From the IMG/VR virus record IMGVR_UViG_3300034374_009547: DNA of 64,000 nucleotides. The stretch is one strand, 5' to 3'. Under the pieces are notes generated by a model. It did no database searches. It was not told the origin of the DNA and was given only the letters and a program-made list of their open reading frames with translations. The number at the start of each line of letters is the position of its first letter. The first letter of the stretch is position 1. Below are positions 7,849 to 22,271 of this stretch, piece after piece. Both the position numbers and the translations under genes were made by a program. Origin of the DNA: a virus. Taxonomy: Duplodnaviria; Caudoviricetes.

Positions 7849-8580
7849 ATGAAAGACATTCTACAAGACATTGTAAGCCATACACATTCGTTAGGCATTA
7901 TTTCAACACTTAAAATTACAACAGAAAATGATATCACAACTATTGAAAGTATGGCAGACGATAGAAGTGTTATTATGACAGCAACAACACATTCACCAGT
8001 AGGCGAATTTGTAGGTACATTTGGTATGCCTGATTTAGGTAAACTAGCTTATCATTTAAAAAATCCAATGTACAGAGAAAATGCTAAAATTGAAGTAATA
8101 AGTGCAGAACGCAACGGTGAAGTTGTTCCAACACATATTCACTTTGAAAACGATACAGGTGACTTTAAAAACGATTATCGTTTTATGATTAAAGAAATTA
8201 TCGAAGAAAAAATTAAAAAGTTTAGTTTTAAAGTTAATACATATGATGTAGAAATCCAGCCAAGAATTGGTAAAATTGAACAAATGAAATACATGCAAGG
8301 CGGACACACAGAAGAAACGGTGTTCCAAGTTAAAACTGAAAATGATAACTTGGTATTTTATTTTGGTGATGATGTAACACACGCAGGTAACTTTGTATTT
8401 GAGCAAGGTATTACTGGAAAACTAACACATACATGGGCATGGCCTGTTTCACAAACTATTGCTATTTTGAACTTGGATGGTGATAAAACTATGAGCATCA
8501 CAGACCAAGGTGCTATGAAGATTAGTGTAGACAGCGGCATGGCAAAATACGATTACATTCTACCGGCTCAACAAAAATAA
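7849..8580 (+). CDS. Putative DNA sliding clamp (gp45/PCNA-like)
   Basis: 243 aa with an alternating beta/alpha pattern of clamp size, in replication-gene context. No catalytic motif seen. Confidence 0.6.
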   Translation: MKDILQDIVSHTHSLGIISTLKITTENDITTIESMADDRSVIMTATTHSPVGEFVGTFGMPDLGKLAYHLKNPMYRENAKIEVISAERNGEVVPTHIHFENDTGDFKNDYRFMIKEIIEEKIKKFSFKVNTYDVEIQPRIGKIEQMKYMQGGHTEETVFQVKTENDNLVFYFGDDVTHAGNFVFEQGITGKLTHTWAWPVSQTIAILNLDGDKTMSITDQGAMKISVDSGMAKYDYILPAQQK

Positions 8581-10136
8581 TGAAAACAAACCTAACTGAA
8601 ACACAAAAAGATTATGCAGTATTTTTACCTAGTATTAGCGGCTTTTATGGCACGTTTGTAGGTAAACAAAGATATGAAGATTATGTTGATCCTTCTCGTG
8701 TTCCAGCAGGTTTAGGCAATGTAGAAAGTCTTAATTTTTTAAATCCTAAAGACGGAGCATTCCATTACAAGTGGGCGCTCTATTCTGCTGGTCACGCAGA
8801 TTTAGATACGACTAAATTTGTTGATAAAGAAGATATGGTGCGTAACCGTGATAGAGATAATTCATGGTTGCTAGGCGACTCAGGTGGTTTCCAAATTGCT
8901 AAAGGGTTGTGGCCCGGTGACTGGACTAGCGAAACTTGTCCACATGCAAATAAAAAACGTGAGCTTGTTGTAAACTGGATGGAAGAATACATGGACTACG
9001 GAATGATGCTTGATATTCCTACATGGACCTTCCAAAGTGCAAAAGCAAGTAAAGCAACTAACATAAAAAGTTATGATGATGCTGTAAAAGCTACTCATAT
9101 TAATGCACGTTATTACATGAAACATAGACGTGGTAACTTTAAGGTATTAAACGTACTACAAGGCAGTAATCATACTAATGCCGATAGTTGGTATGAAGAA
9201 TTCAAAGGTTATTGTGATCCAAAACAATATCCAGATACACACTTTAATGGCTGGGCAATGGGTGGTCAAAACATGTGTGATGTTCATTTGATTTTACGCA
9301 GACTTGTACACATGATACACGATGGATTACTTGAACAAGGGCTGCATGATGTAATGCACTTCTTGGGCACAAGTAAACTAGAATGGGCTGTGTTACTTAC
9401 TGACATACAACGAGCTGTTCGCAAATATCATAATCCTAACTTTATGATTACATATGATTGTGCATCTCCTTTTCTTGCAACAGCAAACGGTCAAATTTAT
9501 CATAACATTAGATTAGATCACAAAGGCAAATGGAGTTATATTATGAGTCCAGGTGCTGACGCTTTGAAATATGCTAGTGATACTAGAAGTTTTATAGACG
9601 CAGTACTACAAGATGGCTTATTACCTACATTTGAAGAATCTCCTGTTAGTCAACACTGCAAAATGAATGATATTTGCATTTATGCTCCAGGCGATAAAAA
9701 CAAAGTTGGTACTATTAAAGTTGAAAAAGGTAAGCCAGAACTTGATAAACAAGGTAATCCTTTACTAGACGATAACGGAAATCCAATTATTATGCGTAAA
9801 GATAGCACAAGTTGGGATTCATTTAGTTATGCGCTACAAATGGGTCATAATGTTTGGATGCATATTGAAAGTACACAACGTGCAAACGAGCGTTATGATG
9901 CAGGAGAATATCCTTACATGATGGTATACGAACCAAGTATTAGACATGTGTTTAGAGATATTGTCAATGAAATCTTTGCACAAAAAGATCGTGAAAAAAG
10001 TCTTGCAGTTATTAACAAATATGGTGACGATAAATCGCTAAGTATTTGGACACACATTATTGGTACTAGATTGAAAGTTGGTAAGAAAACAATAACACCG
10101 GAAGCAAAAGCAGACGAATTATTTGATTGGGGTTGA
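8580..10136 (+). CDS. dpdA: tRNA-guanine transglycosylase-fold protein, putative DNA 7-deazaguanine transglycosylase (DpdA-like)
   Basis: TGT motifs in order: DSGGFQ, MMLDIP, GWAMGG, MHFLG, YDCASP. Co-located with queD, folE and queE. Confidence 0.8.
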   Translation: MKTNLTETQKDYAVFLPSISGFYGTFVGKQRYEDYVDPSRVPAGLGNVESLNFLNPKDGAFHYKWALYSAGHADLDTTKFVDKEDMVRNRDRDNSWLLGDSGGFQIAKGLWPGDWTSETCPHANKKRELVVNWMEEYMDYGMMLDIPTWTFQSAKASKATNIKSYDDAVKATHINARYYMKHRRGNFKVLNVLQGSNHTNADSWYEEFKGYCDPKQYPDTHFNGWAMGGQNMCDVHLILRRLVHMIHDGLLEQGLHDVMHFLGTSKLEWAVLLTDIQRAVRKYHNPNFMITYDCASPFLATANGQIYHNIRLDHKGKWSYIMSPGADALKYASDTRSFIDAVLQDGLLPTFEESPVSQHCKMNDICIYAPGDKNKVGTIKVEKGKPELDKQGNPLLDDNGNPIIMRKDSTSWDSFSYALQMGHNVWMHIESTQRANERYDAGEYPYMMVYEPSIRHVFRDIVNEIFAQKDREKSLAVINKYGDDKSLSIWTHIIGTRLKVGKKTITPEAKADELFDWG

Positions 10137-10137
10137 T

Positions 10138-10359
10138 ATGAGTAACTTTACAGATGAAAAAGATAAACTAAAAAGCTACTTAGAAGAATTAAAACGAAAA
10201 CACAAAAAATTACATGAACAAATTGATCAATATCACGGTATTGAAGTCACTCCAGAAATAAGAAAACTTAAAACACATAAACTTTTTATAAAAGATGAAA
10301 TGCATAGAATTCAAACAAAACTTGAAAACTTAGGACATTACAAAAATGGACGAGCATGA
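10138..10359 (+). CDS. DUF465/YdcH-like coiled-coil protein
   Basis: L..L...H..L..QI...E..KLK..KL.IKDE pattern. Likely start is ATG 10138. Confidence 0.55.
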   Translation: MSNFTDEKDKLKSYLEELKRKHKKLHEQIDQYHGIEVTPEIRKLKTHKLFIKDEMHRIQTKLENLGHYKNGRA

Positions 10360-10516
10360 AAAGAAAGTTAGATTAGAACATATTGATATGGCTTTAGAAG
10401 AACTTGATAAAATCATTGACACAATGAATAAAAAAGGCTATAGTAATGAAAAAATAAACGAGTTTAACAAACAACGTTGGAATCTTTGGAATGAAAGGTA
10501 TAGGCTTAAACAATGA
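10346..10516 (+). CDS. Small hypothetical protein (56 aa), not in the ORF track
   Basis: MDEHEKKVRLEHIDMALEELDKIIDTMNKKGYSNEKINEFNKQRWNLWNERYRLKQ*. ATGA overlap with the next gene. Confidence 0.6.
   Translation: MDEHEKKVRLEHIDMALEELDKIIDTMNKKGYSNEKINEFNKQRWNLWNERYRLKQ
10416..10444 (+). promoter_or_regulatory. sigma70-type promoter
   Basis: TTGACA-17 nt-TATAGT upstream of ORF 10513. Confidence 0.6.
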
Positions 10517-11019
10517 AACGAGATTATGATAGTGGTGTAACATCAGAAGGTGTAAACTTTTTTGTTGGTACTGAAGTAGAACACACACCGCAGTTTGGTA
10601 AGAAAACACTTTTTGTTGTAGGTGTACAAAACTTTGAAGAAATTGTAGAACACGCAGATAAAGCGGGTGTAGATCATATTTACTTGGGTGCTAATATGAG
10701 TTGGAGCAAGGACGAGTCTTGGGACGAAATGGTATTTCCATTGTTGAAAGACGGTTACTGGGTAACACTAGATTTTCCTGTGCAAGACATTGAATGGGTG
10801 CTAGAGTGCGGCTATACAGAATACAATCGCTTTATTCCAATGATTAGCGTAAAAATGCCTTACATTGATCTACTAGGTTACAATGCTTGTTTAAAAGTAG
10901 ATGACAAGGATTTTGATGCTACTAATCCAGGTGTATGGGTACATCGTGTACATGATTTAAAAGATAAATCAAAGTTTACAGATTGGTCTAAATACACCAC
11001 AGATGAAATTATCGCTTGA
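10513..11019 (+). CDS. Hypothetical protein between dpdA and queD
   Basis: 168-aa ORF with enzyme-like beta/alpha pattern (HIYLGAN, WVTLDF, DDKDF). Family not recognised. Confidence 0.75.
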   Translation: MKRDYDSGVTSEGVNFFVGTEVEHTPQFGKKTLFVVGVQNFEEIVEHADKAGVDHIYLGANMSWSKDESWDEMVFPLLKDGYWVTLDFPVQDIEWVLECGYTEYNRFIPMISVKMPYIDLLGYNACLKVDDKDFDATNPGVWVHRVHDLKDKSKFTDWSKYTTDEIIA

Positions 11020-11473
11020 CAATATGCAACAAGAACGTTATTATGAATATATGAAACGGCGCAACAGAGAAGAGGACGCTAAATTGAACGCATTAGAAAA
11101 TGCAAAACGCAGTATTTGGGTAACTTTTACAAAAGAAGGTATCCACAAGTATCCAGCAGCACTGGAAGATCCAGCACTGGCAACAGGTGATGAATATGAT
11201 GTAAGTTTCTTAGGTTATCCACATCGTCATATGTTCCATTTTAAAGTGCAAATTCAAGTTACACACAATGACCGTGACATTGAATTTATCCAGTTCAAAC
11301 GATGGCTGGAATCATTGTATGCAGGAGACATCTTGCAACTAGATTACAAGAGCTGTGAAATGATTGCAGACGACTTGTACACACAAATTAACAGCAAATA
11401 TCCCGGCCGGTTTGTTGTTATTGATGTCGCCGAAGATGGCGAAAACGGCTGTCAAATTGTATACCCAGCATAA
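11003..11473 (+). CDS. queD: QueD-like 6-carboxytetrahydropterin synthase (PTPS/T-fold)
   Basis: HRHMFH metal motif, IEFIQFK, SCEMIA, VAEDGENG. Start uncertain. Confidence 0.75.
   Translation: MKLSLDNMQQERYYEYMKRRNREEDAKLNALENAKRSIWVTFTKEGIHKYPAALEDPALATGDEYDVSFLGYPHRHMFHFKVQIQVTHNDRDIEFIQFKRWLESLYAGDILQLDYKSCEMIADDLYTQINSKYPGRFVVIDVAEDGENGCQIVYPA
11016..11044 (+). promoter_or_regulatory. sigma70-type promoter for queD
   Basis: TTGACA-17 nt-TATTAT. It implies the real queD start lies downstream of 11003. Confidence 0.6.
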
Positions 11474-11487
11474 AGGAAAAAGGTATA

Positions 11488-11676
11488 ATGACTATCTCTA
11501 ATCCGGTAGTAAATAAAATTTTTAACGATCTTGAGGAACTGCACGACTTCTGCAGAACTGAAGGTTATCCATTTAACCAAGCAGATTTGTATAAGAAAGA
11601 TGCTCGTGTATGGCAGGCATTTCAAAAATACAAAAATTGGGTCCGTGCTAGAAATCGCACCAAAGGACGCAAATAA
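11488..11676 (+). CDS. Small hypothetical protein
   Basis: 62 aa, AAGG RBS, TAATG coupling to the next gene. Confidence 0.7.
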   Translation: MTISNPVVNKIFNDLEELHDFCRTEGYPFNQADLYKKDARVWQAFQKYKNWVRARNRTKGRK

Positions 11677-12851
11677 TGCGTAAGCTGTTTTACATGGGCT
11701 TAGAGCCCTATGAAGGCAGGTACACATTACAACTTGAAGAATGGAGTAGGCGTGCGTTTCAACGCCGCTCCATTGATTGGGTTAATGTACCTGGTACAAC
11801 TATTGACAATACAAAAGCAATTCAAGTAGGCCAAGTGTTAGATGCACATGGCCGTTCCTACTTTGCAATGTCGCAAATGATGAACTTGGTGCAAATGATG
11901 CGTAACGGTGAAGTTACAGGCGAAGATGTAGTTTTCTTTGAAGATATGTTCCAGCCTGGTATGGAATCGCTTCCGTATATTATGGATCAGATTCCCACTG
12001 AGCAACGTCCACAGGTTTGGATTCGTTGTTTAGCACAAGCAGTTGATCCAGATGACTTTGTGCATGTTTGGGGCATGGGCAAGTGGATGAGTTTGTATGA
12101 AGAAATGTGCAACGAGTTTGTTACTGGCGTACTAGCAAGTAATGAAGAAATGGTTGCACACATGAAGATTGCAAACTGGAAGGCTCCTATCTACAATGTT
12201 TCAGGTCTTGCATTTGATAAAACAGAAGTTGCTCTACGTGTTGGCGAGATCAACACTTGGGAAAAGCGTGACAATCGTGTGGTATTTGCAGCACGTTTTG
12301 ATCAAGAAAAACAACCAGACTTTTATATGGATTTGATTGAAGAATGGTATGGTACACCAGGTACAGCAGACGTGGAGTTTTGCATTGTGCAAGGTGGCCC
12401 GCTACGCAGTAACAATCAAAAGTATATTGATCGTGCCCGCAAAATGGAAGAGCGTGGACAACTGGTAATTTATGAAAACTTGAAAAAGAATCATTACTAT
12501 GATATTGTAAATCGTAGTAAAGTTTTGTTCAATTGTGCTTTGCAGGATTGGACAAGCAATACGGTAAGCGAAGCAGATGCATTAGGATGCAATGTGTTGT
12601 TTCCAGCGTATCGCAGTTTTCCAGAAATCTTTGCTAATGATCATACACGCATGTATGTGCCTTGGAGTGTTGAAGATGCAATGAACAAGTTAACGCCATT
12701 ACTAAAAAGCGCACATAAAGACTTAGGTAAGATAAGCGATTGGACTAGTGCAACTATTGATCGTTATATTGATATTATGCAAGGTAACGGTGAACAATGG
12801 CGTAGAGATAGCAATCGTTATCGTGATTATGTTGCGGAGACAAAATATTGA
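11676..12851 (+). CDS. GT-B fold glycosyltransferase (GT4-like)
   Basis: FAARFDQEKQP and DWTSNTVSEADALGC (D/E-x7-E motif) in the C-terminal domain. Confidence 0.8.
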   Translation: MRKLFYMGLEPYEGRYTLQLEEWSRRAFQRRSIDWVNVPGTTIDNTKAIQVGQVLDAHGRSYFAMSQMMNLVQMMRNGEVTGEDVVFFEDMFQPGMESLPYIMDQIPTEQRPQVWIRCLAQAVDPDDFVHVWGMGKWMSLYEEMCNEFVTGVLASNEEMVAHMKIANWKAPIYNVSGLAFDKTEVALRVGEINTWEKRDNRVVFAARFDQEKQPDFYMDLIEEWYGTPGTADVEFCIVQGGPLRSNNQKYIDRARKMEERGQLVIYENLKKNHYYDIVNRSKVLFNCALQDWTSNTVSEADALGCNVLFPAYRSFPEIFANDHTRMYVPWSVEDAMNKLTPLLKSAHKDLGKISDWTSATIDRYIDIMQGNGEQWRRDSNRYRDYVAETKY

Positions 12852-13714
12852 GAGTATTGGTCACAGGTGCTACAGGTTATATTGGCAGTCATGTTTGTAA
12901 ACTACTAAAAGAGCATGGACATCACGTTACTGCTTGGGATATAAATATTCATGGTGAATACAATGACATCATGGCATATTGTGACCATTATTCTTCTTAT
13001 GATATAACTAAGTTTGTACATGGTGGCTTTGACGCCGTTGTACACTTAGCAGGACGCAGTGTAGTACCTGATAGTTTACGTGAACCTACAGAATATTATC
13101 GTGTAAACGTGATGGGTACTGCAAACTTGTTAGATCGTGTCGAAACACCACACATACTATTTGCAAGCACTAGTAGTGCTTGGGAAATGGCATCACCATA
13201 TGCACGTAGCAAAGTGGCAGCAGAAGATGTAATTAAGGAGAAAGCCAATGGATACACTATCTTTAGATTTTTTAACGTATCTGGTACTGACGGGCATAAT
13301 CGTCAACTGGGCGTTCCTACCCATCTTATTCGTGTTGCTGCTATGGTGGCTGCTGAAAAACTACCCAACATTAAGATCTTTGGTACGGACTATGATACTA
13401 GGGATGGTACTTGTATTCGTGATTATATTCATGTTGTTGATTTGGCTCGTGCCATTGTCAACGGAGTGGAACGAGGTCCAGCCAATACGGACTATGAGTG
13501 CCTTGGTAGCAACGTAGGTTATAGTGTACGAGAAGTAATCAGTACTATGGAGCAAGTTACTGGTAAAAAGTTAAATATCATTGAAGCAGAACGCAGAGAA
13601 GGCGATGCTGTTGCCAGTGTTGTAGACAACCTAAGTGATCTAGTTACACTGGAAAAAAGCATCGAAGATATGTGTTTGGATCAATACAAATTGGAAGTTG
13701 GTAAAAATGGATGA
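12848..13714 (+). CDS. galE: UDP-glucose 4-epimerase-like NAD-dependent epimerase
   Basis: GATGYIGS, VHLAG, YARSK (YxxxK), FRFFNV, DGTCIRDYIHVVDLA. TTG start. Confidence 0.9.
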   Translation: MRVLVTGATGYIGSHVCKLLKEHGHHVTAWDINIHGEYNDIMAYCDHYSSYDITKFVHGGFDAVVHLAGRSVVPDSLREPTEYYRVNVMGTANLLDRVETPHILFASTSSAWEMASPYARSKVAAEDVIKEKANGYTIFRFFNVSGTDGHNRQLGVPTHLIRVAAMVAAEKLPNIKIFGTDYDTRDGTCIRDYIHVVDLARAIVNGVERGPANTDYECLGSNVGYSVREVISTMEQVTGKKLNIIEAERREGDAVASVVDNLSDLVTLEKSIEDMCLDQYKLEVGKNG

Positions 13715-13937: not shown

Positions 13938-14277
13938 TCACAACAACGATACTATTACAATTACAACTGATGATTTGGATAAATCAGGCGTAACAATTCA
14001 AGGTCATTATTATGGAAATACTATTGATATAGGCACTATATCAACAAGCACACTTGAATACAATGGAATTGATGATTTAGTTTCGCTTGATGATTTTTCG
14101 ATTACACTAAATGATCCTGTTGAGTTTGAAGATCGTATGCCCGATGTTGCCAAGATAGAAGACATGTGCAATGATTATCCAGCACTAGCAAAAGCATATG
14201 AAAATTTTAAAACTATGTATGCTATGGTGCATCAAGACTGGAAAGGTCGACAAGAGGATGACCCACTTCCATTTTAA
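13930..14277 (+). CDS. Hypothetical protein
   Basis: T/D-rich N-terminus and helical C-terminus (MCNDYPALAKAYENFK). Confidence 0.7.
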   Translation: MRDHNNDTITITTDDLDKSGVTIQGHYYGNTIDIGTISTSTLEYNGIDDLVSLDDFSITLNDPVEFEDRMPDVAKIEDMCNDYPALAKAYENFKTMYAMVHQDWKGRQEDDPLPF

Positions 14278-14758
14278 CATAGAACCTGTATGGAATATGG
14301 AACGCTATCGTGCGTTAGACTATAAACTAGACCATCATAAAGATACAAATTTAATACAAAAATATTTAGATGCAGGGCATAGTGCAGAGGCTATGACCCT
14401 GTATAACTATTTTGAACCAAATCCTATGCCACCAAGTATAGAATATATTTGCAGTTATTTTCCTACACTTAAAAACATTTCAATTGCAGTCAACCTATTT
14501 AAGCCAGGACAATATTTGCCTGTACATACAGATCTATATGGTGCATATAAAAAATATCATGGTTTGACAAACGAAACAATTTATAGATATATTGTTATGC
14601 TAGAAGATGGTGTAGAAGGACAAATGTCTGTAATTGGAAACAGAGTTTACACCATGTGGAAAGCAGGACAAATATACGGCTGGCAAGATGATGAAAAACA
14701 CACATTTTATAACTTGAGTACAAAGGATAGATATGCAGTCCAAATTACAGGCACATAA
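14258..14758 (+). CDS. 2OG-Fe(II) oxygenase-like protein
   Basis: PGQYLPVHTD (HxD) ... KHTFYN (distal His) ... RYAVQIT. Likely start ATG 14258 after AGAGG. Confidence 0.75.
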   Translation: MTHFHFNIEPVWNMERYRALDYKLDHHKDTNLIQKYLDAGHSAEAMTLYNYFEPNPMPPSIEYICSYFPTLKNISIAVNLFKPGQYLPVHTDLYGAYKKYHGLTNETIYRYIVMLEDGVEGQMSVIGNRVYTMWKAGQIYGWQDDEKHTFYNLSTKDRYAVQITGT

Positions 14759-16022: not shown

Positions 16023-16926
16023 TCATACAAATATACGTGGTGGTAATCGTGTGTATCCTTGTTGTCGTTACAAGGAAAGTGTAATGCACTTTGATGGCAA
16101 TGTTGGTAAAATTATGCATAGTTATATGTATAATAAATTACGTGCAGATATGGAAGATGATTGGTTGCCGGGCTGTGGTAAATGCAAACACGAAGAAGAA
16201 CTAGGGGTAGAAAGTTTAAGACAACGGTTTAATTCTCGTTATCAAATGAGCAAACCTACACTGGATTATTTGGAAGTAGGGTTTGATAACATATGTGATT
16301 TAACTTGTGATGGTTGCTGGGAGGAATGGAGCAGCAGCTGGTGGGCTAAAAAGAATCCCGACCTGCCACACAAACAGGGAATTACCAGCACAGAAGAATT
16401 TACACATATACCCAACACTATAAATCGTGTGGTGTTTTTAGGTGGCGAACCACTTATGACAAATAGACACAGACGTTTTTTACAAACATTTGACAATTTA
16501 GAAAATCTATCTGTGGAATATTTTACAAATGGTATGCACAAATTACAAGAAGAAGATTACCAAGTTTTAAGCAAATGCAAACATGTACACTTTACAATCA
16601 GCATAGACGGTATAGGTGTTTTGAATGAACAGGTGCGTAGCGGTAGTGTTTGGAGCAGAGTGGTCAAAACATTAGATGAAATAGCAGATGTATTTGATTA
16701 TACAATACACAGCGTAGTGCATAAAAATAATTGGCACGGTTTACCAGAACTTGCAGAGTTTGCAAAAAAATATAAAAAATGGACAACAAATGTCTTGACA
16801 TTTCCTAAAGAACTGGATATAATAACACTAGAGCAGTGTGACAAAGCAAAACTAGAAAAAATATTGGATACATATGATATACCAAACAGGCAATATATTA
16901 AGGCACACTTACAAGGAGAAGCATGA
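16000..16926 (+). CDS. Radical SAM protein with N-terminal twitch-like module
   Basis: CDLTCDGC (CxxxCxxC), GGEP, N-terminal C...YPCC...CGKC. Confidence 0.88.
   Translation: MKCAALYNHTNIRGGNRVYPCCRYKESVMHFDGNVGKIMHSYMYNKLRADMEDDWLPGCGKCKHEEELGVESLRQRFNSRYQMSKPTLDYLEVGFDNICDLTCDGCWEEWSSSWWAKKNPDLPHKQGITSTEEFTHIPNTINRVVFLGGEPLMTNRHRRFLQTFDNLENLSVEYFTNGMHKLQEEDYQVLSKCKHVHFTISIDGIGVLNEQVRSGSVWSRVVKTLDEIADVFDYTIHSVVHKNNWHGLPELAEFAKKYKKWTTNVLTFPKELDIITLEQCDKAKLEKILDTYDIPNRQYIKAHLQGEA
16795..16823 (+). promoter_or_regulatory. Consensus sigma70 promoter inside the rSAM gene
   Basis: Perfect TTGACA-17 nt-TATAAT about 100 nt upstream of ORF 16923. Confidence 0.75.
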
Positions 16927-17537
16927 TGGACATGCGCAGTTATGAAAATTGGAGAGAACACGGTGCTGATGAAAGTAGTGTAGAAGAAGTAACTTGGAAT
17001 AATAACGATTTGCTTACACTACCTTGGGAAGCAACATATATGACAGACGAGATTCCAGAAGATAGTTCATGGGATACGTTTGCTACAAAAAATAAAAAAG
17101 CACTAGAAGCCATGTACAAACAATGGGGAGTACCTAAAGAAGGTAGTCTACATTATATGAGTATACGTCCAGAACTAACAAAAGGACTTGCTACACTTAT
17201 TGCTCCGTATGCACATATGAAGTTCAATTACAACTTCCTAAAACTAACACCAGGGTGTAGTTTAATGTGGCACTTTGATACATATGCTACATTTGTAAAG
17301 TTCAATAATATCGATGAAGCAGATGCACATCATGTTTGTAGGACCGTTGTGATGATGGATGACTGGGATAGAGGTCAAGTACTACAAGTAGGTGACGAAG
17401 TTTACACAGGCTGGAGTGCAGGAGATACATATACTTGGAAGGGTGATACTTGGCACGGTATGGCTAATTTTGGTCCTACTAATATTGTTATTGCTCAAAT
17501 AACATTCCTGGATGAAGATGACAAATATTCCCAATGA
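16923..17537 (+). CDS. 2OG-Fe(II) oxygenase-like protein
   Basis: LTPGCSLMWHFD (HxD) ... WHGMAN. Confidence 0.72.
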   Translation: MMDMRSYENWREHGADESSVEEVTWNNNDLLTLPWEATYMTDEIPEDSSWDTFATKNKKALEAMYKQWGVPKEGSLHYMSIRPELTKGLATLIAPYAHMKFNYNFLKLTPGCSLMWHFDTYATFVKFNNIDEADAHHVCRTVVMMDDWDRGQVLQVGDEVYTGWSAGDTYTWKGDTWHGMANFGPTNIVIAQITFLDEDDKYSQ

Positions 17538-18420
17538 TAAGCGTGATATGGATTTTGGCAGTGCTTTTGCTATACAAGATCCAGAAACAATGCGTTTATT
17601 AAGAAAACATTATAACTTTATTGATCTCAATAATGACAGCATTATTGATGAATTTCTGCATGAATACGATACTTGGATTAAATCAGGTACACTAAATGTG
17701 TTTACTGGATTAGAAGATTTTGGTTACAAATGTTATAGTAATGGTACTACAGAAGCATTTGATAAATTTTATATGCGCAATGCTAAACGTAGATTCCGAT
17801 GCTATAAAGGCGAATATATGTATCATAGATTAGCGTGGAGAGACAAGTTTGTTTGGGCATATATTGAAGACGAACCGCTTCACAATGCAGATGCAGTAGT
17901 TATTAGTTTACCATTTGCGGATACAGGTGACAAACACGACAAGTATCACGATCTAATGCGTGAATGTAGTGAACTAGGAATACCAGTATTAGTAGATTGT
18001 GCATATTACGGTGCTTGTAGGCATATACACATAGACTTAGCGTATCCTTGTATTACAGACGTTACGTTTAGTTTGAGCAAAACATTTCCAGTTGCTTACG
18101 CCCGTATAGGTATGCGATATACTAAAGTAGATGACGACGATACAATGTTTGTGTATCACAAAATAAACTACAATAACAAAATAGGTGCATTACTTGGTTT
18201 AGAATATTTTGACAACTTTTCACCCGATTACATACCAAACAAATATATTGACAAACAAGCAGATTTCTGTAATACTATAGGAGTTAGTATTAGTAAAACC
18301 GTGCTATTTGGTATTGATTACAATAATAAGTTTCCGCAATACAACAGAGGCGGACGTACAAATAGACTGAGTTTTCATAAACAATATATTAAAGGATTAG
18401 ATATTGCCGGTACAAAGTAA
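17512..18420 (+). CDS. Fold-type I PLP-dependent enzyme (aminotransferase/decarboxylase-like)
   Basis: NGTTEAF, LVDCAYYG (PLP Asp), SLSKTF (Schiff-base Lys), RIG. Start may be ATG a few codons in. Confidence 0.75.
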   Translation: MKMTNIPNDKRDMDFGSAFAIQDPETMRLLRKHYNFIDLNNDSIIDEFLHEYDTWIKSGTLNVFTGLEDFGYKCYSNGTTEAFDKFYMRNAKRRFRCYKGEYMYHRLAWRDKFVWAYIEDEPLHNADAVVISLPFADTGDKHDKYHDLMRECSELGIPVLVDCAYYGACRHIHIDLAYPCITDVTFSLSKTFPVAYARIGMRYTKVDDDDTMFVYHKINYNNKIGALLGLEYFDNFSPDYIPNKYIDKQADFCNTIGVSISKTVLFGIDYNNKFPQYNRGGRTNRLSFHKQYIKGLDIAGTK

Positions 18421-19462
18421 TAACGATTGGGATCCATTAGAAGAGATTATTATCGGCACAGCAGACAATTGTGTGCATCCTACTATGAATATTAGTACAC
18501 ATAGTTTTATATATGGTGGTGAACAATATGAAGATATCAAACACTTTAACGGGCAACCTATTGAACAATGGATTGTCGATGAAGCAAACGAAGATTTAGA
18601 TGGGTTAGAAAAGTGCTTAAAAGATTTAGGTGTTAAAACTAGACGTCCAAAAAGCATCGATCATAACCAAAAGTTTAGCACACCAGAATGGACTACTACA
18701 GGATGGTATACTTTCTGTCCAAGAGATTTGTTGTTGCCTTTAGACAATATGATTGTAGAATGTCCTAGCCCAATGCGAGCAAGATATTTTGAAACTAGAG
18801 CATACTATGACCATTTATATGAATGGATGAAAGAAGGTACACAATGGATTTGTGCGCCTAAACCTATTTTAACTGATGATAACTATCAATTGGAGGACCG
18901 TAGTGAAGCAACCCTTGTTAACAAAGAAATTATTTTTGATGCTCCTAATATCGTTCGTCTTGGTAGGGATCTTCTCTGCCAAGTTAGCAATAGTGGCAAC
19001 CAACTTGGTTTTGAATGGTTACGTACTATTTTAGAGCCAAAAGGCTATCGTATCCACGTAGCAGAAAAATATTATAGTTTTGCACACTTTGATAGCACCG
19101 TATTGCCACTGCGGCCTGGACTAGTGTTGTTTAATGCAGGACGCCTAAGCGAGGATTGGTATCCACCTATTTTTAAAGACTGGGACAAGATTTGGGTAGG
19201 TGAAGAAGATCTACACGTTCCGCCAGCAAACACAGGTGTTGCTCCTTGCTCACCTTATATTGGATTAAACTTTTTGAGTGTTAATCCAGAACTTGTTATT
19301 GTTGATGAAAAGCAAGAAGCACTTAGACGTATACTAGGCAAACATGGTATTGATACAATAGGCCTTCCAATGCGTCAAGCACGTAGCATGAGCGGAGGGT
19401 TTCATTGTGCTACACTAGACACTAAGCGCAAAGGCAGTTTGGAGGATTATTTTGCAACATAG
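18404..19462 (+). CDS. Amidinotransferase (glycine/inosamine-phosphate amidinotransferase family)
   Basis: WDPLEEIIIG, CPRD, FDAPN, HFDST, GGFHC (catalytic Cys). TTG start. Confidence 0.9.
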   Translation: MPVQSNNDWDPLEEIIIGTADNCVHPTMNISTHSFIYGGEQYEDIKHFNGQPIEQWIVDEANEDLDGLEKCLKDLGVKTRRPKSIDHNQKFSTPEWTTTGWYTFCPRDLLLPLDNMIVECPSPMRARYFETRAYYDHLYEWMKEGTQWICAPKPILTDDNYQLEDRSEATLVNKEIIFDAPNIVRLGRDLLCQVSNSGNQLGFEWLRTILEPKGYRIHVAEKYYSFAHFDSTVLPLRPGLVLFNAGRLSEDWYPPIFKDWDKIWVGEEDLHVPPANTGVAPCSPYIGLNFLSVNPELVIVDEKQEALRRILGKHGIDTIGLPMRQARSMSGGFHCATLDTKRKGSLEDYFAT

Positions 19463-19673
19463 TATAGAACAATGGATTGAACGTATAAATGCAATGAAAG
19501 ATATGTGTATTCAAGCACATAGATTGCGTAATCAATACAGCGAACAAGTTGAAGAAACATACAACTATGCACAAGTAAAAGATATACTAGAGCAAGTGCA
19601 ATCAATGGCCGCCGGTATTGCAAATGAAAAAATAACCGAAATTAAAACAGAAATGGATGAATGGAAAAAATGA
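19452..19673 (+). CDS. Hypothetical protein
   Basis: 73-aa helical ORF, TTG start after GGAGGA. Confidence 0.6.
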   Translation: MQHSIEQWIERINAMKDMCIQAHRLRNQYSEQVEETYNYAQVKDILEQVQSMAAGIANEKITEIKTEMDEWKK

Positions 19674-20224
19674 AACGCAAACATTATACTTGGGACGATG
19701 TACATAAATGTGCTCACAAACTAGCACTGGAAATGTACAAAACTGGATTCAAACCAGATTATATTGTAGGACTCAACAGAGGCGGTCTGCCTATCAGTGT
19801 TGTGTTAAGCCATTTATTAGACTGCGACCATTATGCGCTAGATGTACGGTTACGTGATAACAAAGGAGAAACTGGACCTGAATCTAACTGCTGGATGGCA
19901 GAAGATGCGTTTGGGTATGTATCTCAAATTGATAGAGATGATGTTTGGAGTAAATCTACTAGCGATACTGCTAAGAAAAAGAAAATTTTAATTGTAGATG
20001 ATATCAACGATACTGGTGCTACATTTAAATGGATTAAAGAAGATTGGCAAGCAGGTTGTTTACCAGATAGTCCAAACTGGGATACCATTTGGAATCAAAA
20101 TGTTCGCTTTGCTGTAATGTGTGAAAAAACACATACCGAGTTTGATGGGGTTGACTATGTATGGCAAACCATAGATACAGGTGAAGAAGATACATGGATT
20201 GTGTTTCCATGGGAATATGATTAA
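19661..20224 (+). CDS. Type I purine phosphoribosyltransferase (Gpt/Hpt-like)
   Basis: VGLNRGGLP, PRPP-binding loop ILIVDDINDTGAT, WIVFPWE. Confidence 0.88.
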   Translation: MEKMKRKHYTWDDVHKCAHKLALEMYKTGFKPDYIVGLNRGGLPISVVLSHLLDCDHYALDVRLRDNKGETGPESNCWMAEDAFGYVSQIDRDDVWSKSTSDTAKKKKILIVDDINDTGATFKWIKEDWQAGCLPDSPNWDTIWNQNVRFAVMCEKTHTEFDGVDYVWQTIDTGEEDTWIVFPWEYD

Positions 20225-20233
20225 GGAGATAAC

Positions 20234-20362
20234 ATGAGTTGTACATGTGGAAGATCGCCAACAGGACGTTGTGTAGGTTGGCATAGTTTAACAGAGGAGC
20301 AATACCTTGAGAAAAAAGCCGAATATGAAAAAAGACAAGCACTAAAGGAGAAAAAGGAATGA
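20234..20362 (+). CDS. 42-aa CDGSH-like Fe-S/zinc-finger miniprotein, not in the ORF track
   Basis: MSCTCGRSPTGRCVGWHSLTEEQYLEKKAEYEKRQALKEKKE*. AAGGAG RBS, ATGA overlap downstream. Confidence 0.7.
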   Translation: MSCTCGRSPTGRCVGWHSLTEEQYLEKKAEYEKRQALKEKKE

Positions 20363-20562
20363 AAGAACAACTAGTAAAAGCAGCACGTATGCACGCCGAA
20401 GGTGAGCTCGAAAGAGCAAAAACAAATATTATGGTTTACATGAACCAAAGTGTAGGTATTGGCGAACACAGCGATATCGTCGAAGCAATTCAAGAAGAAC
20501 TTGATAAAATGGCAGCGGCAGAAGATCGTATCGAAATGCTGAGAAAATATTTTGAGGGTTAA
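20359..20562 (+). CDS. Small conserved phage hypothetical protein
   Basis: 67 aa with VGIGEHSDIVEAI. AAGGAG RBS. Confidence 0.7.
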   Translation: MKEQLVKAARMHAEGELERAKTNIMVYMNQSVGIGEHSDIVEAIQEELDKMAAAEDRIEMLRKYFEG

Positions 20563-20579
20563 AAACCATAGTTAACCTA

Positions 20580-20608
20580 TTGACAAATAATCTAAATAAT
20601 GTTACTAT
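20580..20608 (+). promoter_or_regulatory. sigma70-type promoter for folE-queE
   Basis: TTGACA-17 nt-TACTAT. Confidence 0.75.
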
Positions 20609-20613
20609 AAACA

Positions 20614-20640
20614 ATAGACATCCTCGTCTATAACTCGGAG
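20614..20640 (+). promoter_or_regulatory. 5' leader hairpin of folE (candidate cis-regulatory RNA)
   Basis: ATAGAC-ATCCTC-GTCTAT 6-bp stem at the predicted transcript start, followed by GGAG RBS. Confidence 0.4.
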
Positions 20641-20646
20641 AATAAA

Positions 20647-21378
20647 ATGACAGAAGAAGTAAAAGGACTTAATACTGACAATGTTGAGCCTGTAAAGATT
20701 AGTCAAGTAGTACGTGAAAGACTACAAAAAAACGGTGTTCGTTTTTATGCAAATGACAATATTAGTGAACATATTAGTGAATTTGAATTACAAGAGATTC
20801 AAAACGAATTAAAATACAAGTTCCAAGATGTACTAGATACACTTATTATTGATACAGAAAACGATCCAAACAGCATGGATACTGCAAATCGTTTGGCGAA
20901 GATGTATATTCATGAATTGATGCGTGGAAGGTATTATCCGCAGCCTAATGCAACTGCATTTCCTAATCATACAGATGATGCGTATGATGGTATGCTTGTT
21001 GTGCGTAGCGAACTTAAAAGTGTTTGTTCGCATCACCATCAACCAGTTACAGGTGTAGCATATATTGGTATTCTTGCTGCTGATAAACTTATTGGATTAA
21101 GCAAGTATACACGTATTGCACAATGGTGTGCTAGACGTGGCACACTACAAGAAGAACTTGCAATGGATATCTGTAAAGAAATAATGAAAGTTACAGGTGC
21201 TAAAGATTGTGGTGTTTATATTCAAGCAACACACGGTTGCTGTGAAAATAGAGGCATTATGGCACATAGTAGTTTAACACAAACAAGTGTACTAAAAGGT
21301 GCGTTTAAAACTGATCCTGGTACAAAGAAAGAATTTTTTGATAACATTAAATTACAACAGGAGTTTGCACCGCGATGA
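20647..21378 (+). CDS. folE: GTP cyclohydrolase I
   Basis: SVCSHHHQP, GLSKYTRI, QEEL, HGCCENRG. Confidence 0.95.
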   Translation: MTEEVKGLNTDNVEPVKISQVVRERLQKNGVRFYANDNISEHISEFELQEIQNELKYKFQDVLDTLIIDTENDPNSMDTANRLAKMYIHELMRGRYYPQPNATAFPNHTDDAYDGMLVVRSELKSVCSHHHQPVTGVAYIGILAADKLIGLSKYTRIAQWCARRGTLQEELAMDICKEIMKVTGAKDCGVYIQATHGCCENRGIMAHSSLTQTSVLKGAFKTDPGTKKEFFDNIKLQQEFAPR

Positions 21379-22271
21379 AACTAAGATATAGTGAAGCATT
21401 TTATAGTGTGCAAGGCGAAGGCAAATTTGTAGGAGTACCTAGTGTATTCCTACGCACCTTTGGTTGTAACTTTCGTTGTATGAATTTTGGTGTGGATAAA
21501 AGTGTTGGCAGTCGTTGGGAGCAACACGCAAAAGGTCAACGCTACAACGCAGAAGTAAAACAACTGCTAGATGACGGTGTTCATGAAACTACAAAAGAGT
21601 TTAATGATTTGCCTATTGTGCATACAGGCTGCGATACATATGCAAGTATCTATCCAGAATTTAAACACTTCAATATGCTTAAAAGCGTAGATGAAGTTGT
21701 AGAACACTTGTTGAGTTTGTTGCCGGAAGGCAAATGGACTATGGATAATGGACAAGATGTTCATCTTATCCTTACAGGCGGCGAGCCATTACTTGCTTGG
21801 CAACGGTTGTATGTCGAGCTGTTTGAACACCCAGGTATGCAGGATCTAAAAAATGTCACAATCGAAACCAACACTACACAGCATCTACACGATGACTTCT
21901 ACAACTATCTCAATGGTCACGAAAGAATTCAGCTCACTTTTAGCTGTTCTCCCAAACTATCCGTATCGGGCGAGTCTTGGGATGATGCTATTAAGCCTGA
22001 TGTTGCTCGTGAGTATTCCCTTGTTGATGGCAGCAATATGTATTTTAAGTTTGTTGTTGCTGATCAGAGTGATGTTGACGAAGTTGGTAGAGCAGTTGAT
22101 ACCTATCGTAAAGCGGGCGTGGATGTTCCTGTATATCTCATGCCGCTTGGGGGTAGGTCGGAAGAATACACTCTCAACGTACAAGAGGTGGCGAACCTCT
22201 GTATGGAACGAGGGTGGAGGTTCTCGCCAAGACTCCACATTAGCCTATTCGGAAATGCCTGGGGCACTTAA
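21375..22271 (+). CDS. queE: 7-carboxy-7-deazaguanine synthase (radical SAM)
   Basis: EAFYSVQGEG..VG.PSVFLRTFGCNFRC...GCDT, TGGEP, IETN, SPKL, YLMP, RLH. Confidence 0.92.
   Translation: MKLRYSEAFYSVQGEGKFVGVPSVFLRTFGCNFRCMNFGVDKSVGSRWEQHAKGQRYNAEVKQLLDDGVHETTKEFNDLPIVHTGCDTYASIYPEFKHFNMLKSVDEVVEHLLSLLPEGKWTMDNGQDVHLILTGGEPLLAWQRLYVELFEHPGMQDLKNVTIETNTTQHLHDDFYNYLNGHERIQLTFSCSPKLSVSGESWDDAIKPDVAREYSLVDGSNMYFKFVVADQSDVDEVGRAVDTYRKAGVDVPVYLMPLGGRSEEYTLNVQEVANLCMERGWRFSPRLHISLFGNAWGT

What the first reader, a model, noticed from the sequence alone, without database searches (positions are those of the whole stretch)
8580..22271. 7-deazaguanine pathway wrapped around tailoring enzymes: candidate new hypermodified base
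Seen: dpdA-like and queD on the left and folE-queE on the right enclose GT4, GalE, two 2OG-Fe(II) oxygenases, a GT-like protein, a twitch-rSAM, a PLP enzyme, an amidinotransferase, a purine PRTase and a CDGSH-like miniprotein. Established: FolE, QueD and QueE make CDG from GTP, and phages carry dCDG, dADG, dPreQ0, dPreQ1, dG+ and related bases. I recognise no QueF or ArcS here, and no QueC within this locus. Inference: the inserted base is elaborated further (glycosylated, hydroxylated or amidinated) into a derivative outside that known set.
Basis: partly seen in the sequence, partly recalled or inferred. Interest (0 to 1): 0.85.

Follow-up and report, generated by a model that had tools for sequence, protein, structure and literature searches.

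The report
Deazaguanine DNA-modification locus with glycosyltransferase
An uncultured freshwater giant phage carries the genes to replace guanine in its DNA with a 7-deazaguanine, and a sugar-transferring enzyme sits inside this gene set in five phage lineages, so the final base may be a sugar-bearing one that nobody has described.

Summary
The locus is real. It is a 7-deazaguanine DNA-modification module in a PA5oct-related freshwater jumbo phage. FolE, a QueE-type radical-SAM enzyme and a TGT-fold DpdA-like protein are confirmed.

The gene read as queD is not QueD. It is DpdL, the QueD paralogue with the LxxxHRHxF signature that was proposed to decarboxylate CDG to 7-deazaguanine (dDG, known from Cellulophaga phage phiST). 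No canonical QueD, QueC, QueF or ArcS was found.

The main new result concerns the GT-B glycosyltransferase. It lies within one or two genes of DpdA and DpdL in five phage lineages: this clade, PA5oct, ACP17, Xanthomonas X1/BUDD and Synechococcus BUCT-ZZ01. It keeps its catalytic-type residues. A Gpt-like phosphoribosyltransferase also recurs.

The block of radical SAM, Fe/2OG-like, PLP-like and StrB1-like amidinotransferase genes is a mobile accessory cassette. About a third of relatives carry it, in a variable slot.

The CDGSH-like call is wrong, and the "GT-like" 429-aa protein stays unassigned.

A glycosylated deazaguanine, guanidinylated in some relatives, is plausible but chemically untested. 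Culturable carriers such as PA5oct and ACP17 make it directly testable.

The parts
5778..6215 (+). Small nucleotidylyltransferase (RfaE-domain-II / TagD-like); candidate activator of the sugar or polyol donor
   Evidence: PF01467 1.2e-15. TIGR02199 1.8e-22 and TIGR01518 1.4e-18, both below their cut-offs. In relatives L045, L047 and L059 it sits between o168 and DpdL.
6347..7060 (+). Phosphomannomutase-type HAD-IIB enzyme
   Evidence: PF03332 2.2e-27. Found in 63 of 80 related loci.
7057..7803 (+). Short NDP-sugar dehydrogenase (N-terminal and central domains only)
   Evidence: PF00984 2.3e-23 and PF03721. TIGR03026 5e-39, covering positions 72-295 of 413.
7849..8580 (+).
   Evidence: phrog_12062 4e-36. 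33% identical to PA5oct gp170. A 12/12 sigma-70 consensus lies at 7800-7828.
8580..10136 (+). DpdA-like TGT-fold protein, the candidate DNA guanine transglycosylase; disordered C-terminal tail ends ELFDWG
   Evidence: AF2 pLDDT 91. Foldseek top 50 all TGT. Profile against PDB hits only TGT. D100, D145 and D293 are invariant in 55 homologues. hhalign to ACP17 gp123 95.6%, X1 TGT 95.1%, phiST DpdA3 81.7%.
10513..11019 (+). Conserved core protein of unknown function (o168)
   Evidence: Found in 78 of 80 related loci. Homologue of ACP17 gp122, E 1e-19. No match in Pfam, NCBIfam, PHROG, Atlas or a PDB profile search.
11003..11473 (+). DpdL (QueD paralogue, proposed CDG decarboxylase), not QueD
   Evidence: L70-x3-H74-R-H76-x-F78 is invariant. 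This matches the LxxxHRHxF signature in PMC10516641. tblastn finds phiST CGPG_00067 (36%, 3e-11), ACP17 gp125 (54%) and PA5oct gp166 (64%).
11676..12851 (+). GT-B (GT4-like) glycosyltransferase, a conserved member of the DpdA/DpdL module
   Evidence: PF00534 8.9e-5, below cut-off. Foldseek finds only GT-B retaining transferases, E about 2e-8. Homologues adjoin DpdL and DpdA in BUCT-ZZ01, ACP17, X1/BUDD and PA5oct gp167. 22 residues are invariant, including R207, E211, K212, K271 and E299.
12848..13714 (+). GalE-like NDP-sugar 4-epimerase (SDR)
   Evidence: PF01370 4.8e-37. TIGR01179 7e-60, at 202 bits against a cut-off of 262. Present in all 39 relatives with at least 6 kb downstream of DpdA.
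14198..14758 (+). Fe(II)/2OG-oxygenase-like protein (o186), accessory
   Evidence: HxD...H is invariant with its paralogue o204. Marginal hits to AtsK (0.029) and PF05118 (0.12).
14733..16022 (+). Phage-only 429-aa protein, accessory, function open
   Evidence: No family hit. Atlas gives a GT10 lead at 0.79. Structural neighbours are fused to epimerase or methyltransferase domains in other phages.
16000..16926 (+). N-terminal-twitch radical SAM enzyme (first gene of the four-gene cassette)
   Evidence: NF033640 at 172.5 bits against a cut-off of 170; PF04055 2e-9. 22-30% identical to the island paralogues.
16923..17537 (+). Fe(II)/2OG-oxygenase-like protein (o204), cassette
   Evidence: Invariant H117-x-D119...H178. 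Always found together with the radical SAM, o302 and o352.
17512..18420 (+). Putative fold-type-I PLP aminotransferase (weak evidence), cassette
   Evidence: SLSK motif. TIGR01140 0.013 and PF00155 0.079. A profile search against PDB found nothing.
18404..19462 (+). StrB1-like amidinotransferase, cassette
   Evidence: Profile against PDB: 1bwd E 9.2e-89 over residues 3-349. HsvA, SxtG and AGAT score 1e-58 to 1e-64. The GGFHC335 catalytic-Cys motif is present.
19661..20224 (+). Gpt-like purine phosphoribosyltransferase, core
   Evidence: PF00156 2.2e-12. PRK09177 1.3e-10. BUCT-ZZ01 has an annotated XGPRT between QueE and QueD. Weak match to PA5oct gp163.
20359..20562 (+). 67-aa conserved protein; not CDGSH
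   Evidence: phrog_1811 2e-27. It has no cysteine, and no CDGSH motif occurs in the region.
20647..21378 (+). GTP cyclohydrolase I (FolE)
   Evidence: PF01227 1.1e-38 at 133 bits. NF006824 1.7e-39.
21375..22271 (+). QueE-type CDG synthase with about 50 residues inserted between the second and third cluster cysteines
   Evidence: phrog_2076 6.5e-52. QueE NCBIfam models hit below their cut-offs. C31, C35 and C86 are conserved across seven lineages.

Best explanation
This is the guanine-modification module of an uncultured freshwater jumbo phage related to Pseudomonas phage PA5oct.

Shown:
- It encodes FolE and a QueE-type radical-SAM enzyme.
- It encodes a very divergent TGT-fold protein that keeps the three TGT aspartates (DpdA-like).
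- It encodes DpdL in place of QueD.
- There is no QueC, QueF or ArcS.

Inferred pathway:
1. FolE converts GTP to H2NTP.
2. CPH4 is made by a host QueD or an unrecognised phage enzyme.
3. QueE makes CDG.
4. DpdL makes 7-deazaguanine.
5. The DpdA-like enzyme exchanges it for G in phage DNA.
6. The Gpt-like PRTase salvages the released guanine back towards GTP.

Shown by comparison: a GT-B glycosyltransferase with conserved catalytic-type residues belongs to this module in five phage lineages.

Inferred from that: the end product is a GT-dependent derivative, most simply a sugar attached to the deazaguanine on DNA. In this clade the NDP-sugar would come from the phage's own nucleotidylyltransferase, mutase, dehydrogenase and GalE-like enzymes.

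Inferred for the cassette: about a third of relatives carry a four-gene cassette of radical SAM, Fe/2OG-like, PLP-like and StrB1-like amidinotransferase genes. It would turn a hydroxyl of that sugar into a guanidino group by oxidation, transamination and amidination.
For: - The backbone is syntenic with PA5oct: PolB, gp170, gp168, gp166, QueE gp162, exonuclease, ATPase.
- PA5oct DNA resists G-site restriction enzymes and is hit by nucleases specific for modified G (PMC12191111).
- TGT fold and catalytic residues of the DpdA-like protein.
- DpdL signature and homology to phiST CGPG_00067.
- FolE and QueE.
- GT-B fold. GT-B next to DpdA and DpdL in PA5oct (gp167, hhalign 96.1%), ACP17 gp124, X1/BUDD and BUCT-ZZ01. 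Invariant R207, E211, K212, K271 and E299.
- The core order is kept in all 39 relatives with enough flank.
- The nucleotidylyltransferase lies inside the cluster in three relatives.
- Slot genes in relatives include a Vut_1/YhhQ-family transporter, a PnrA-like protein, DegT and MetK.
- StrB1-like amidinotransferase at E 9e-89. The cassette moves as a unit.
- Cui et al. could not obtain dDG from ACP17 or phiST DpdA plus DpdL alone and suggested missing enzymes.
Against: - No chemistry is available for any carrier of the GT-B.
- phiST makes plain dDG without a GT-B.
- 7-deazaguanine offers no obvious O- or N-handle in the major groove.
- DpdL's decarboxylase activity has never been demonstrated.
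- No QueD was found, either here or in a 93%-complete relative.
- The N-terminal (acceptor) domain of the GT-B model has low confidence.
- PA5oct, ACP17 and BUCT-ZZ01 lack the clade's sugar-nucleotide genes near the module.
- The cassette is absent from 31 of 37 complete intervals.
- The cassette's radical SAM belongs to a family that is massively expanded elsewhere in the genome.
- BUCT-ZZ01's GT-B is 69% identical to this one, so that lineage is not fully independent.
Confidence: 0.5

Rival explanations
1. The DNA carries plain 2'-deoxy-7-deazaguanosine, the base already known from phiST. The GT-B has another role. It could be a structural or accessory partner of this long DpdA type, or it could glycosylate a protein, a lipid carrier or a metabolite. 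The sugar-nucleotide genes and the cassette would then serve virion or host-surface glycans, or the product of the neighbouring radical-SAM island. They would sit here only because the interval is a hot spot for accessory genes.
For: - phiST has DpdL and dDG without a GT-B.
- The interval between the epimerase and the PRTase is highly variable. It also takes in unrelated genes such as a 1048-aa subtilase and MetK.
- The cassette is absent from most relatives.
- Relatives without the cassette still have 9-13 N-twitch radical SAM genes elsewhere.
- The best structural matches of the GT-B act on small molecules and lipids: BshA, MshA, PimA, LmbT.
Against: - GT-B adjacency to DpdA and DpdL survives rearrangement of gene order in five lineages down to 23% identity. 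That is hard to explain without a shared function.
- A deazapurine-transporter-family gene and a purine-nucleoside-binding protein occupy the same slot.
- DpdA plus DpdL alone failed to give dDG in E. coli.
Confidence: 0.3
2. The module works before replication, or not on DNA at all. The PRTase would couple 7-deazaguanine or CDG to PRPP, as ToyH and TubE do in toyocamycin and tubercidin biosynthesis (from my own knowledge of those pathways). The resulting deaza-nucleotide would then be incorporated by the phage polymerase. Alternatively the GT-B would convert it into a free deazapurine glycoside, with the TGT-like protein acting on RNA or in repair.
For: - A purine PRTase is conserved inside the module here, in BUCT-ZZ01 and weakly in PA5oct.
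- There is no QueC, as in the tubercidin route.
- The GT-B's nearest folds glycosylate small molecules.
- In phiST a MazG-like dNTP pyrophosphatase adjoins DpdL.
Against: - A TGT-fold enzyme with intact catalytic aspartates is the most conserved member of the module.
- It sits in the replication block directly after PolB and the gp170 homologue.
- It carries the same type of C-terminal LF[DE] tail as the polymerase.
- The PRTase is closest to Gpt-type guanine/xanthine enzymes, which fits guanine salvage.
- Cui et al. found a DpdA in every deazaguanine phage.
Confidence: 0.12

Closest known systems
Cellulophaga phage phiST dDG system (FolE, QueD, QueE, DpdL, DpdA3; Cui, Hutinet et al. 2023, PMC10516641)
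   Same: FolE, QueE and DpdL with LxxxHRHxF, plus a distant TGT-like transglycosylase. No QueC. The module lies next to the polymerase genes.
   Different: phiST has a canonical QueD, a MazG-like gene and a short 259-aa DpdA3. It has no GT-B, PRTase or sugar genes. The transglycosylase here is 518 aa and only weakly related to DpdA3 (hhalign 81.7%). No QueD was found here.
Pseudomonas phage PA5oct gp168-gp162 (Wroclawvirus)
   Same: Same backbone synteny. gp168 is DpdA-like (35% identity), gp167 is the GT-B (hhalign 96.1%), gp166 is DpdL (64%) and gp162 is QueE. Its DNA is reported to carry a modified G of unknown structure.
   Different: PA5oct lacks the GalE-like gene, the cassette, an adjacent FolE and the N-twitch radical SAM island. 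It has two canonical PTPS genes elsewhere. The published analysis named only QueE and PTPS, not gp166-gp168.
Acidovorax phage ACP17 gp119-gp126, Xanthomonas phages X1/BUDD, Synechococcus phage BUCT-ZZ01
   Same: All keep a TGT-like protein, the GT-B and DpdL as neighbours of QueE and FolE. ACP17 also has the o168 homologue, and BUCT-ZZ01 also has the PRTase.
   Different: These are other virus families, with shorter TGT-like proteins (416-437 aa). ACP17 and BUCT-ZZ01 have a QueD. None has the cassette, and none has a GalE-like neighbour.
T4 alpha/beta-glucosyltransferases on 5-hydroxymethylcytosine DNA (own knowledge)
   Same: A phage GT-B-fold enzyme encoded among replication genes that would decorate an already modified base on DNA using an NDP-sugar.
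   Different: The acceptor there is a pyrimidine hydroxymethyl group. No ThyA-type hydroxymethylase is present in a 93%-complete relative. There is no sequence similarity. No glycosylated purine is known in DNA.
Streptomycin StrB1 / aminoglycoside 'oxidise, transaminate, amidinate' logic (BtrN-type twitch radical SAM dehydrogenase: own knowledge)
   Same: The amidinotransferase aligns with StrB1 end to end at E 9e-89, with the catalytic Cys motif. It is paired with a twitch radical SAM enzyme and a putative aminotransferase.
   Different: The twitch domain here is N-terminal (NF033640). The aminotransferase assignment is weak. The substrate is unknown. The setting is a phage replication module.
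Bacterial Dpd system (DpdA, DpdB, DpdC; PMC10164549)
   Same: A TGT-family enzyme inserts a 7-deazaguanine into DNA.
   Different: Dpd uses preQ0 made by QueC and needs the DpdB ATPase. Neither is present here, and the DpdA-like protein lacks the CxCxxC Zn motif.

Membership tests
DpdA / TGT superfamily | TGT (beta/alpha)8 fold | tested here: met
   AF2 pLDDT 91, pTM 0.90. Foldseek PDB top 50 are all TGT, E 5e-7, probability 1.00.
DpdA / TGT superfamily | Catalytic aspartates (Z. mobilis D102, D156, D280) | tested here: met
   D100 (DSGGFQ) and D145 (LDIPT) align in the profile-to-TGT alignment. D293 (YDCA against FDCV) is assigned by motif inspection. All three are invariant in 55 homologues at 26-58% identity.
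DpdA / TGT superfamily | Zn site CxCxxC...H | tested here: not met
   No CxCxxC in the 518-aa sequence; only C359 and C366 lie in that region.
DpdA / TGT superfamily | Match to Pfam PF01702 or membership of a named subfamily (bDpdA, DpdA1-4) | tested here: inconclusive
   No Pfam hit even at E 1. hhalign 95.6% to ACP17 gp123, 95.1% to the X1 TGT and 81.7% to phiST DpdA3. DpdA1, DpdA2 and DpdA4 were not compared.
DpdA / TGT superfamily | Exchange of G for a 7-deazaguanine in DNA | not testable with these tools
   Needs an enzyme assay or nucleoside mass spectrometry.
DpdL | LxxxHRHxF replacing QueD's CxxxHGH, with the three His and the Glu retained | tested here: met
   L70, H74, H76 and F78 are invariant and R75 is nearly invariant. 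H48, E119 and E144 are invariant in 20 sequences including PA5oct gp166. The signature is given in PMC10516641.
DpdL | Homology to phiST CGPG_00067 and ACP17 DpdL | tested here: met
   tblastn 36% at 3e-11 and 54% at 1e-34. The hits fall on CGPG_00067 and gp125.
DpdL | CDG decarboxylase activity | not testable with these tools
   The activity is only proposed in the literature, and heterologous tests there failed.
QueD / PTPS | CxxxHGH motif and a PF01242 match | tested here: not met
   No Pfam hit. Leu replaces the catalytic Cys. No PF01242 match in a 93%-complete relative, although the same search finds two in PA5oct.
QueE | Radical-SAM cysteine triad, N-terminal QGEG motif and full-length family match | tested here: met
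   C31, C35 and C86 are conserved, with about 50 residues inserted. phrog_2076 6.5e-52 over residues 1-297. NCBIfam QueE equivalogs hit at 37-49 bits, far below their cut-offs of 200-300.
FolE | PF01227 above the gathering score | tested here: met
   132.9 bits against 27.
QueC | PF06508 match anywhere in the window or in relatives | tested here: not met
   Relatives give only partial hits of 19-25 bits, and PA5oct gives none. The window ORFs called 'QueC-like' give PP-loop matches at E 0.01-0.14 only.
GT-B (GT4-like) glycosyltransferase | Two-Rossmann GT-B fold with a donor-binding C-terminal domain | tested here: met
   Foldseek finds only GT-B transferases, E 2e-8 to 2e-6. The C-terminal domain has pLDDT 70-92 and the N-terminal domain is low.
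GT-B (GT4-like) glycosyltransferase | Pfam PF00534 above the gathering score; conserved EX7E-type Glu and basic donor-binding residues | tested here: inconclusive
   22.5 bits against 26.4. E299, R207, K212 and K271 are invariant across five lineages. Their roles are assigned by analogy only.
Amidinotransferase (StrB1 / AGAT) | Full-length homology and the C-terminal catalytic Cys | tested here: met
   1bwd at 9.2e-89, residues 3-349 against 4-346. GGFHC335AT is conserved.
N-terminal-twitch radical SAM (NF033640) | Score over the curated cut-off | tested here: met
   172.5 bits against 170.
Fe(II)/2OG oxygenase | HxD/E...H triad and a family match | tested here: inconclusive
   The triad is invariant in 18 sequences. 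Only marginal matches were found: AtsK 0.029 and PF05118 0.12.
CDGSH iron-sulfur protein | CDGSH cluster-binding motif | tested here: not met
   No such motif in six frames of 8001-23000. The 67-aa protein has no Cys.

The most novel reading that the evidence does not exclude
In phages that carry the DpdA / GT-B / DpdL module, G is replaced by a sugar-bearing 7-deazaguanine. One route would be C-glycosylation of the electron-rich C7 freed by DpdL. Another would be N2-glycosylation, as in the deazapurine antibiotics. In the relatives that carry the cassette, the sugar would be further converted to a guanidino sugar. As far as I know this would be the first glycosylated purine in any DNA. It would also explain why DpdA plus DpdL alone could not be reconstituted.
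Probability: 0.33. Interest if true: 0.9.

Novelty: new variant of a known kind. Interest (0 to 1): 0.7.

Why it matters
- **Known set.** Eight 7-deazaguanine DNA bases are known, and none carries a sugar. The DpdL branch is the least understood: its enzyme activity is unproven and its reconstitution failed.
- **Candidate missing component.** A catalytically intact-looking GT-B enzyme, and often a purine PRTase, travels with DpdA and DpdL across phage families. That gives a concrete candidate for the missing component or for an unrecognised further modification.
- **PA5oct.** The same comparison assigns roles to PA5oct gp166-gp168. PA5oct is a therapy-relevant phage whose modified G is still undefined.
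- **Scale.** The DpdA-like family is invisible to Pfam yet very large. Deazaguanine DNA may therefore be far commoner in aquatic jumbo phages than annotation shows.
- **Applications.** New bulky or cationic purine modifications matter for restriction, CRISPR and type IV evasion, and for sequencing and enzyme tools.

Tried and rejected
- **Nucleotide search.** Megablast of the locus against 50,697 phage records found nothing.
- **Own genome.** No whole genome is held for the window, so the rest of this phage could not be searched. Relatives were used instead: a 330-kb IMG/VR contig rated 93% complete, and PA5oct.
- **Single-sequence PDB searches.** The DpdA-like protein and DpdL gave nothing useful.
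- **DpdL profile against PDB.** No PTPS was found. Its T-fold rests on the published DpdL/QueD relation and on an Atlas neighbour cluster where 10% of members carry PTPS.
- **o168.** Pfam, NCBIfam, PHROG, Atlas and a PDB profile search were all empty. The idea that it replaces QueD is untested.
- **o429.** Only a sub-threshold GT10 lead.
- **o302.** A profile search against PDB was empty.
- **Alternative acceptor for the GT-B.** A ThyA-type hydroxymethylase (hmC/hmU route) is absent from the 93%-complete relative, and a normal ThyA occurs in only some relatives. Rejected.
- **Phosso.** The gene next to its DpdA-like gene is a primase, not a GT-B. The module is dispersed there.
- **Ahp1.** The 290-aa neighbour of DpdL is not detectably related to this DpdA family.
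- **Wide search with the GT-B.** It listed only proteins at least 92% identical. It could not test whether distant GT-B homologues occur without DpdL.
- **Public sequencing runs.** They hold the locus only as contigs from freshwater metagenomes and some marine ones. No read-level or signal-level evidence of modification could be sought.
- **Complex prediction.** None was run, because I do not claim a specific protein-protein contact.

Full report
**What the window is.** From 1 to about 36.3 kb all genes run on the + strand. This stretch is a replication and nucleotide-metabolism block: PolB, a 5'-3' exonuclease, an AAA ATPase and others. There is no nucleotide match to any deposited phage. At protein level the backbone is syntenic with Pseudomonas jumbo phage PA5oct. 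The shared order is PolB, the gp170 homologue, gp168, gp166, QueE gp162, gp160, the exonuclease and the ATPase. The same DNA is present in at least 13 freshwater metagenome samples and some marine ones. The 518-aa protein has at least 7,345 metagenomic relatives at 90% clustering. Eighty related IMG/VR loci were retrieved for comparison.

**The deazaguanine genes.**
- FolE (20647-21378) is unambiguous.
- The 298-aa protein at 21375-22271 matches the phage QueE family over its whole length. It also matches five QueE NCBIfam models below their cut-offs. Its three cluster cysteines are conserved in seven lineages, with about 50 residues inserted between the second and third.
- The 518-aa protein (8580-10136) has no Pfam, NCBIfam, PHROG or single-sequence PDB hit.
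  - A profile of 55 diverse homologues hits only tRNA-guanine transglycosylases, in register with DSGGFQ, the LD-x-PT aspartate and GWAxGG.
  - The AF2 model (pLDDT 91) retrieves only TGT structures.
  - D100, D145 and D293 are invariant. The Zn-binding CxCxxC motif is absent.
  - The family is related to the TGT-like proteins of ACP17, Xanthomonas X1 and BUCT-ZZ01 (hhalign 93-96%). It is more weakly related to phiST DpdA3 (82%).

**The 'queD' is DpdL.** The 156-aa protein (11003-11473) has no PTPS hit. Twenty homologues share an invariant L-x3-H-R-H-x-F. Cui, Hutinet et al. (PMC10516641) describe exactly this change, from QueD's CxxxHGH to LxxxHRHxF, as the signature of DpdL. DpdL is the proposed CDG decarboxylase behind 2'-deoxy-7-deazaguanosine in phiST. 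tblastn places the matches on phiST CGPG_00067 and ACP17 gp125, the two DpdL genes that paper tested. It also places them on PA5oct gp166.

A canonical PTPS is missing from the locus and from a 93%-complete 330-kb relative. The same search finds two in PA5oct. QueC is absent: relatives give only partial PP-loop-level hits, and the window's island ORFs give only marginal PP-loop matches. The encoded route therefore stops at CDG and DG, and step two (CPH4 synthesis) is unaccounted for.

**The glycosyltransferase belongs to the module.** The 391-aa protein (11676-12851) is a GT-B enzyme by fold and weakly by Pfam. Its homologues in deposited phages are few, and every one lies beside DpdL:

| Phage | Gene order |
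|---|---|
| BUCT-ZZ01 | QueE, PRTase, hyp, QueD, FolE, hyp, TGT-like, DpdL, GT-B |
| ACP17 | FolE, o168-like, TGT-like, GT-B, DpdL, QueE |
| X1 / BUDD | GT-B, TGT, DpdL, QueE |

PA5oct gp167, which lies between gp168 and gp166, is the same family (hhalign 96.1% over 292 columns). Across these lineages 22 residues are invariant. They include an N-terminal E-x2-E-x-RYT, R207, EK(211-212), K271 and E299. This fits a retained donor site, although the roles are assigned by analogy. The neighbour of the DpdA-like gene in Phosso is a primase and serves as a negative control. phiST, which makes plain dDG, has no GT-B. Cui et al. could not obtain dDG from DpdA plus DpdL alone and suggested that enzymes were missing.

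**Other core genes.**
- A Gpt-like PRTase (19661-20224) is kept in the clade. It recurs inside the BUCT-ZZ01 cluster and matches PA5oct gp163 weakly.
- A 168-aa unknown is core and has a homologue in ACP17 gp122.
- In this clade the GT-B is always followed by a GalE-like epimerase.
- Upstream lie a small RfaE-II/TagD-like nucleotidylyltransferase, a PMM-type mutase and a short NDP-sugar dehydrogenase. In three relatives the nucleotidylyltransferase sits between o168 and DpdL.

**The cassette.** In 39 relatives with at least 6 kb downstream, the order DpdA, o168, DpdL, GT-B, epimerase ... PRTase, o67, FolE, QueE is constant. The interval after the epimerase varies. The radical SAM, o204, o302 and o352 always travel together, with or without o186 and o429. 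They occur in 6 of 37 fully captured intervals and in about a third of the loci with enough flank.
- o352 is a StrB1-type amidinotransferase (E 9e-89).
- The radical SAM is an N-terminal-twitch enzyme.
- o186 and o204 share an HxD...H triad.
- o302 is a weak aminotransferase candidate.

In other relatives the same slot holds several different genes:
- a Vut_1/YhhQ-family transporter; from my own knowledge this is the family of the preQ0/preQ1 importer;
- a PnrA-like purine-nucleoside-binding protein together with a bona fide 2OG oxygenase;
- a DegT-type sugar aminotransferase fragment;
- MetK;
- a subtilase.

The cassette's radical SAM is only 22-30% identical to the 11 island paralogues it matches. 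Relatives without the cassette still carry 9-13 such genes, whereas PA5oct has none.

**Mechanism, with status.**

Shown:
- gene identities as listed above;
- conserved synteny.

Inferred:
- GTP goes to H2NTP via FolE;
- CPH4 comes from the host or an unrecognised enzyme;
- QueE makes CDG and DpdL makes DG;
- the DpdA-like enzyme inserts DG into DNA;
- the PRTase salvages the released guanine;
- the GT-B transfers a sugar to the deazaguanine;
- the cassette turns a sugar hydroxyl into a guanidino group.

I put about 0.9 on the claim that this is a DpdL-type deazaguanine DNA module. I put about 0.5 on the full chain including a GT-dependent product, and about 0.35 on the cassette acting on the same product. 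The rivals are plain dDG with unrelated sugar genes (0.3) and a nucleotide-level or non-DNA route through the PRTase (0.12).

queD is DpdL. No CDGSH-like protein exists. The 'GT-like' 429-aa protein is unassigned.

**Novelty.** The kind of system is known: phage 7-deazaguanine DNA modification on the DpdL branch. Three things are not described in the papers I could search. They are the long Pfam-invisible DpdA family of jumbo phages, the constant GT-B partner, and the sugar and amidino accessory genes. I therefore rate it a new variant of a known kind. It has a realistic chance of leading to a new base, and it is directly testable in PA5oct or ACP17.

Noticed in passing
window 6021-28158, + strand: Eleven sigma-70 consensus promoters with at least 11 of 12 matches lie on the coding strand of 1-36.3 kb. 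Two are perfect: 7800-7828 and 16795-16823. About one is expected from shuffles (maximum 6 in 100), and only one lies on the opposite strand. Several sit just upstream of gene starts: the gp170 homologue, o168, the radical SAM, o204 and the exonuclease. A 10/12 match lies at 20580-20608, just upstream of FolE. This suggests early transcription by host RNA polymerase from many promoters rather than one operon.
   Followed up: partly
window 5231-5251 and 10116-10136; 80 IMG/VR loci: PolB ends ...SLFEWG and the DpdA-like protein ends ...ELFDWG. In relatives both keep a C-terminal LF[DE] tail: PolB has (S/N)LF(D/E)(W/F)x and the DpdA-like protein has (E/K)LF(E/D)E. The DpdA tail (497-518) is disordered in the model. 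This fits a shared docking motif, for example for a clamp. Binding was not tested.
   Followed up: partly
window 36355-63900, - strand; relatives G001, G003, G004: There is a large island rich in N-terminal-twitch radical SAM genes (NF033640). Eleven island ORFs match the cassette's radical SAM. Relatives carry 9-13 genes each above the family cut-off, and PA5oct has none. FkbM methyltransferase, nitroreductase and AsnB-like genes are interspersed. The two ORFs noted elsewhere as 'QueC-like' (57638-58462 and 59780-60634) are only marginal PP-loop matches.
   Followed up: partly
window 21375-22271; PA5oct, BUCT-ZZ01, X1, Ahp1 QueE: The QueE of these phages has about 45-50 residues inserted between the second and third cysteines of the radical-SAM cluster motif (C-x3-C...C). 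ACP17 and phiST have the short form.
   Followed up: partly
PA5oct NC_071039.1, 167111-171944: PA5oct has a thymidylate-synthase-family gene and two canonical PTPS/QueD genes together, about 55 kb from its DpdA / GT-B / DpdL / QueE block. The freshwater clade shows no canonical PTPS at all.
   Followed up: no
window 7057-7803: The NDP-sugar dehydrogenase is only 248 aa. It has the N-terminal and central domains and no C-terminal nucleotide-sugar-binding domain, yet it is conserved in 60 of 80 relatives. Whether it is active is unclear.
   Followed up: no
L092 (Synechococcus phage BUCT-ZZ01), 9001-10167: Its GT-B is 69% identical to the window's, whereas its DpdL and QueE are only 38% identical. 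This suggests recent exchange of the GT-B gene between freshwater cyanophages and this jumbo clade, with insertion again next to DpdL.
   Followed up: no
window 22341-22934 and 30928-31497: A 197-aa SGNH-like protein (motif FGCS in place of GDS) follows QueE. A separate 189-aa Asp/Asn beta-hydroxylase-family protein (PF05118, 1.3e-9) lies 9 kb downstream.
   Followed up: no
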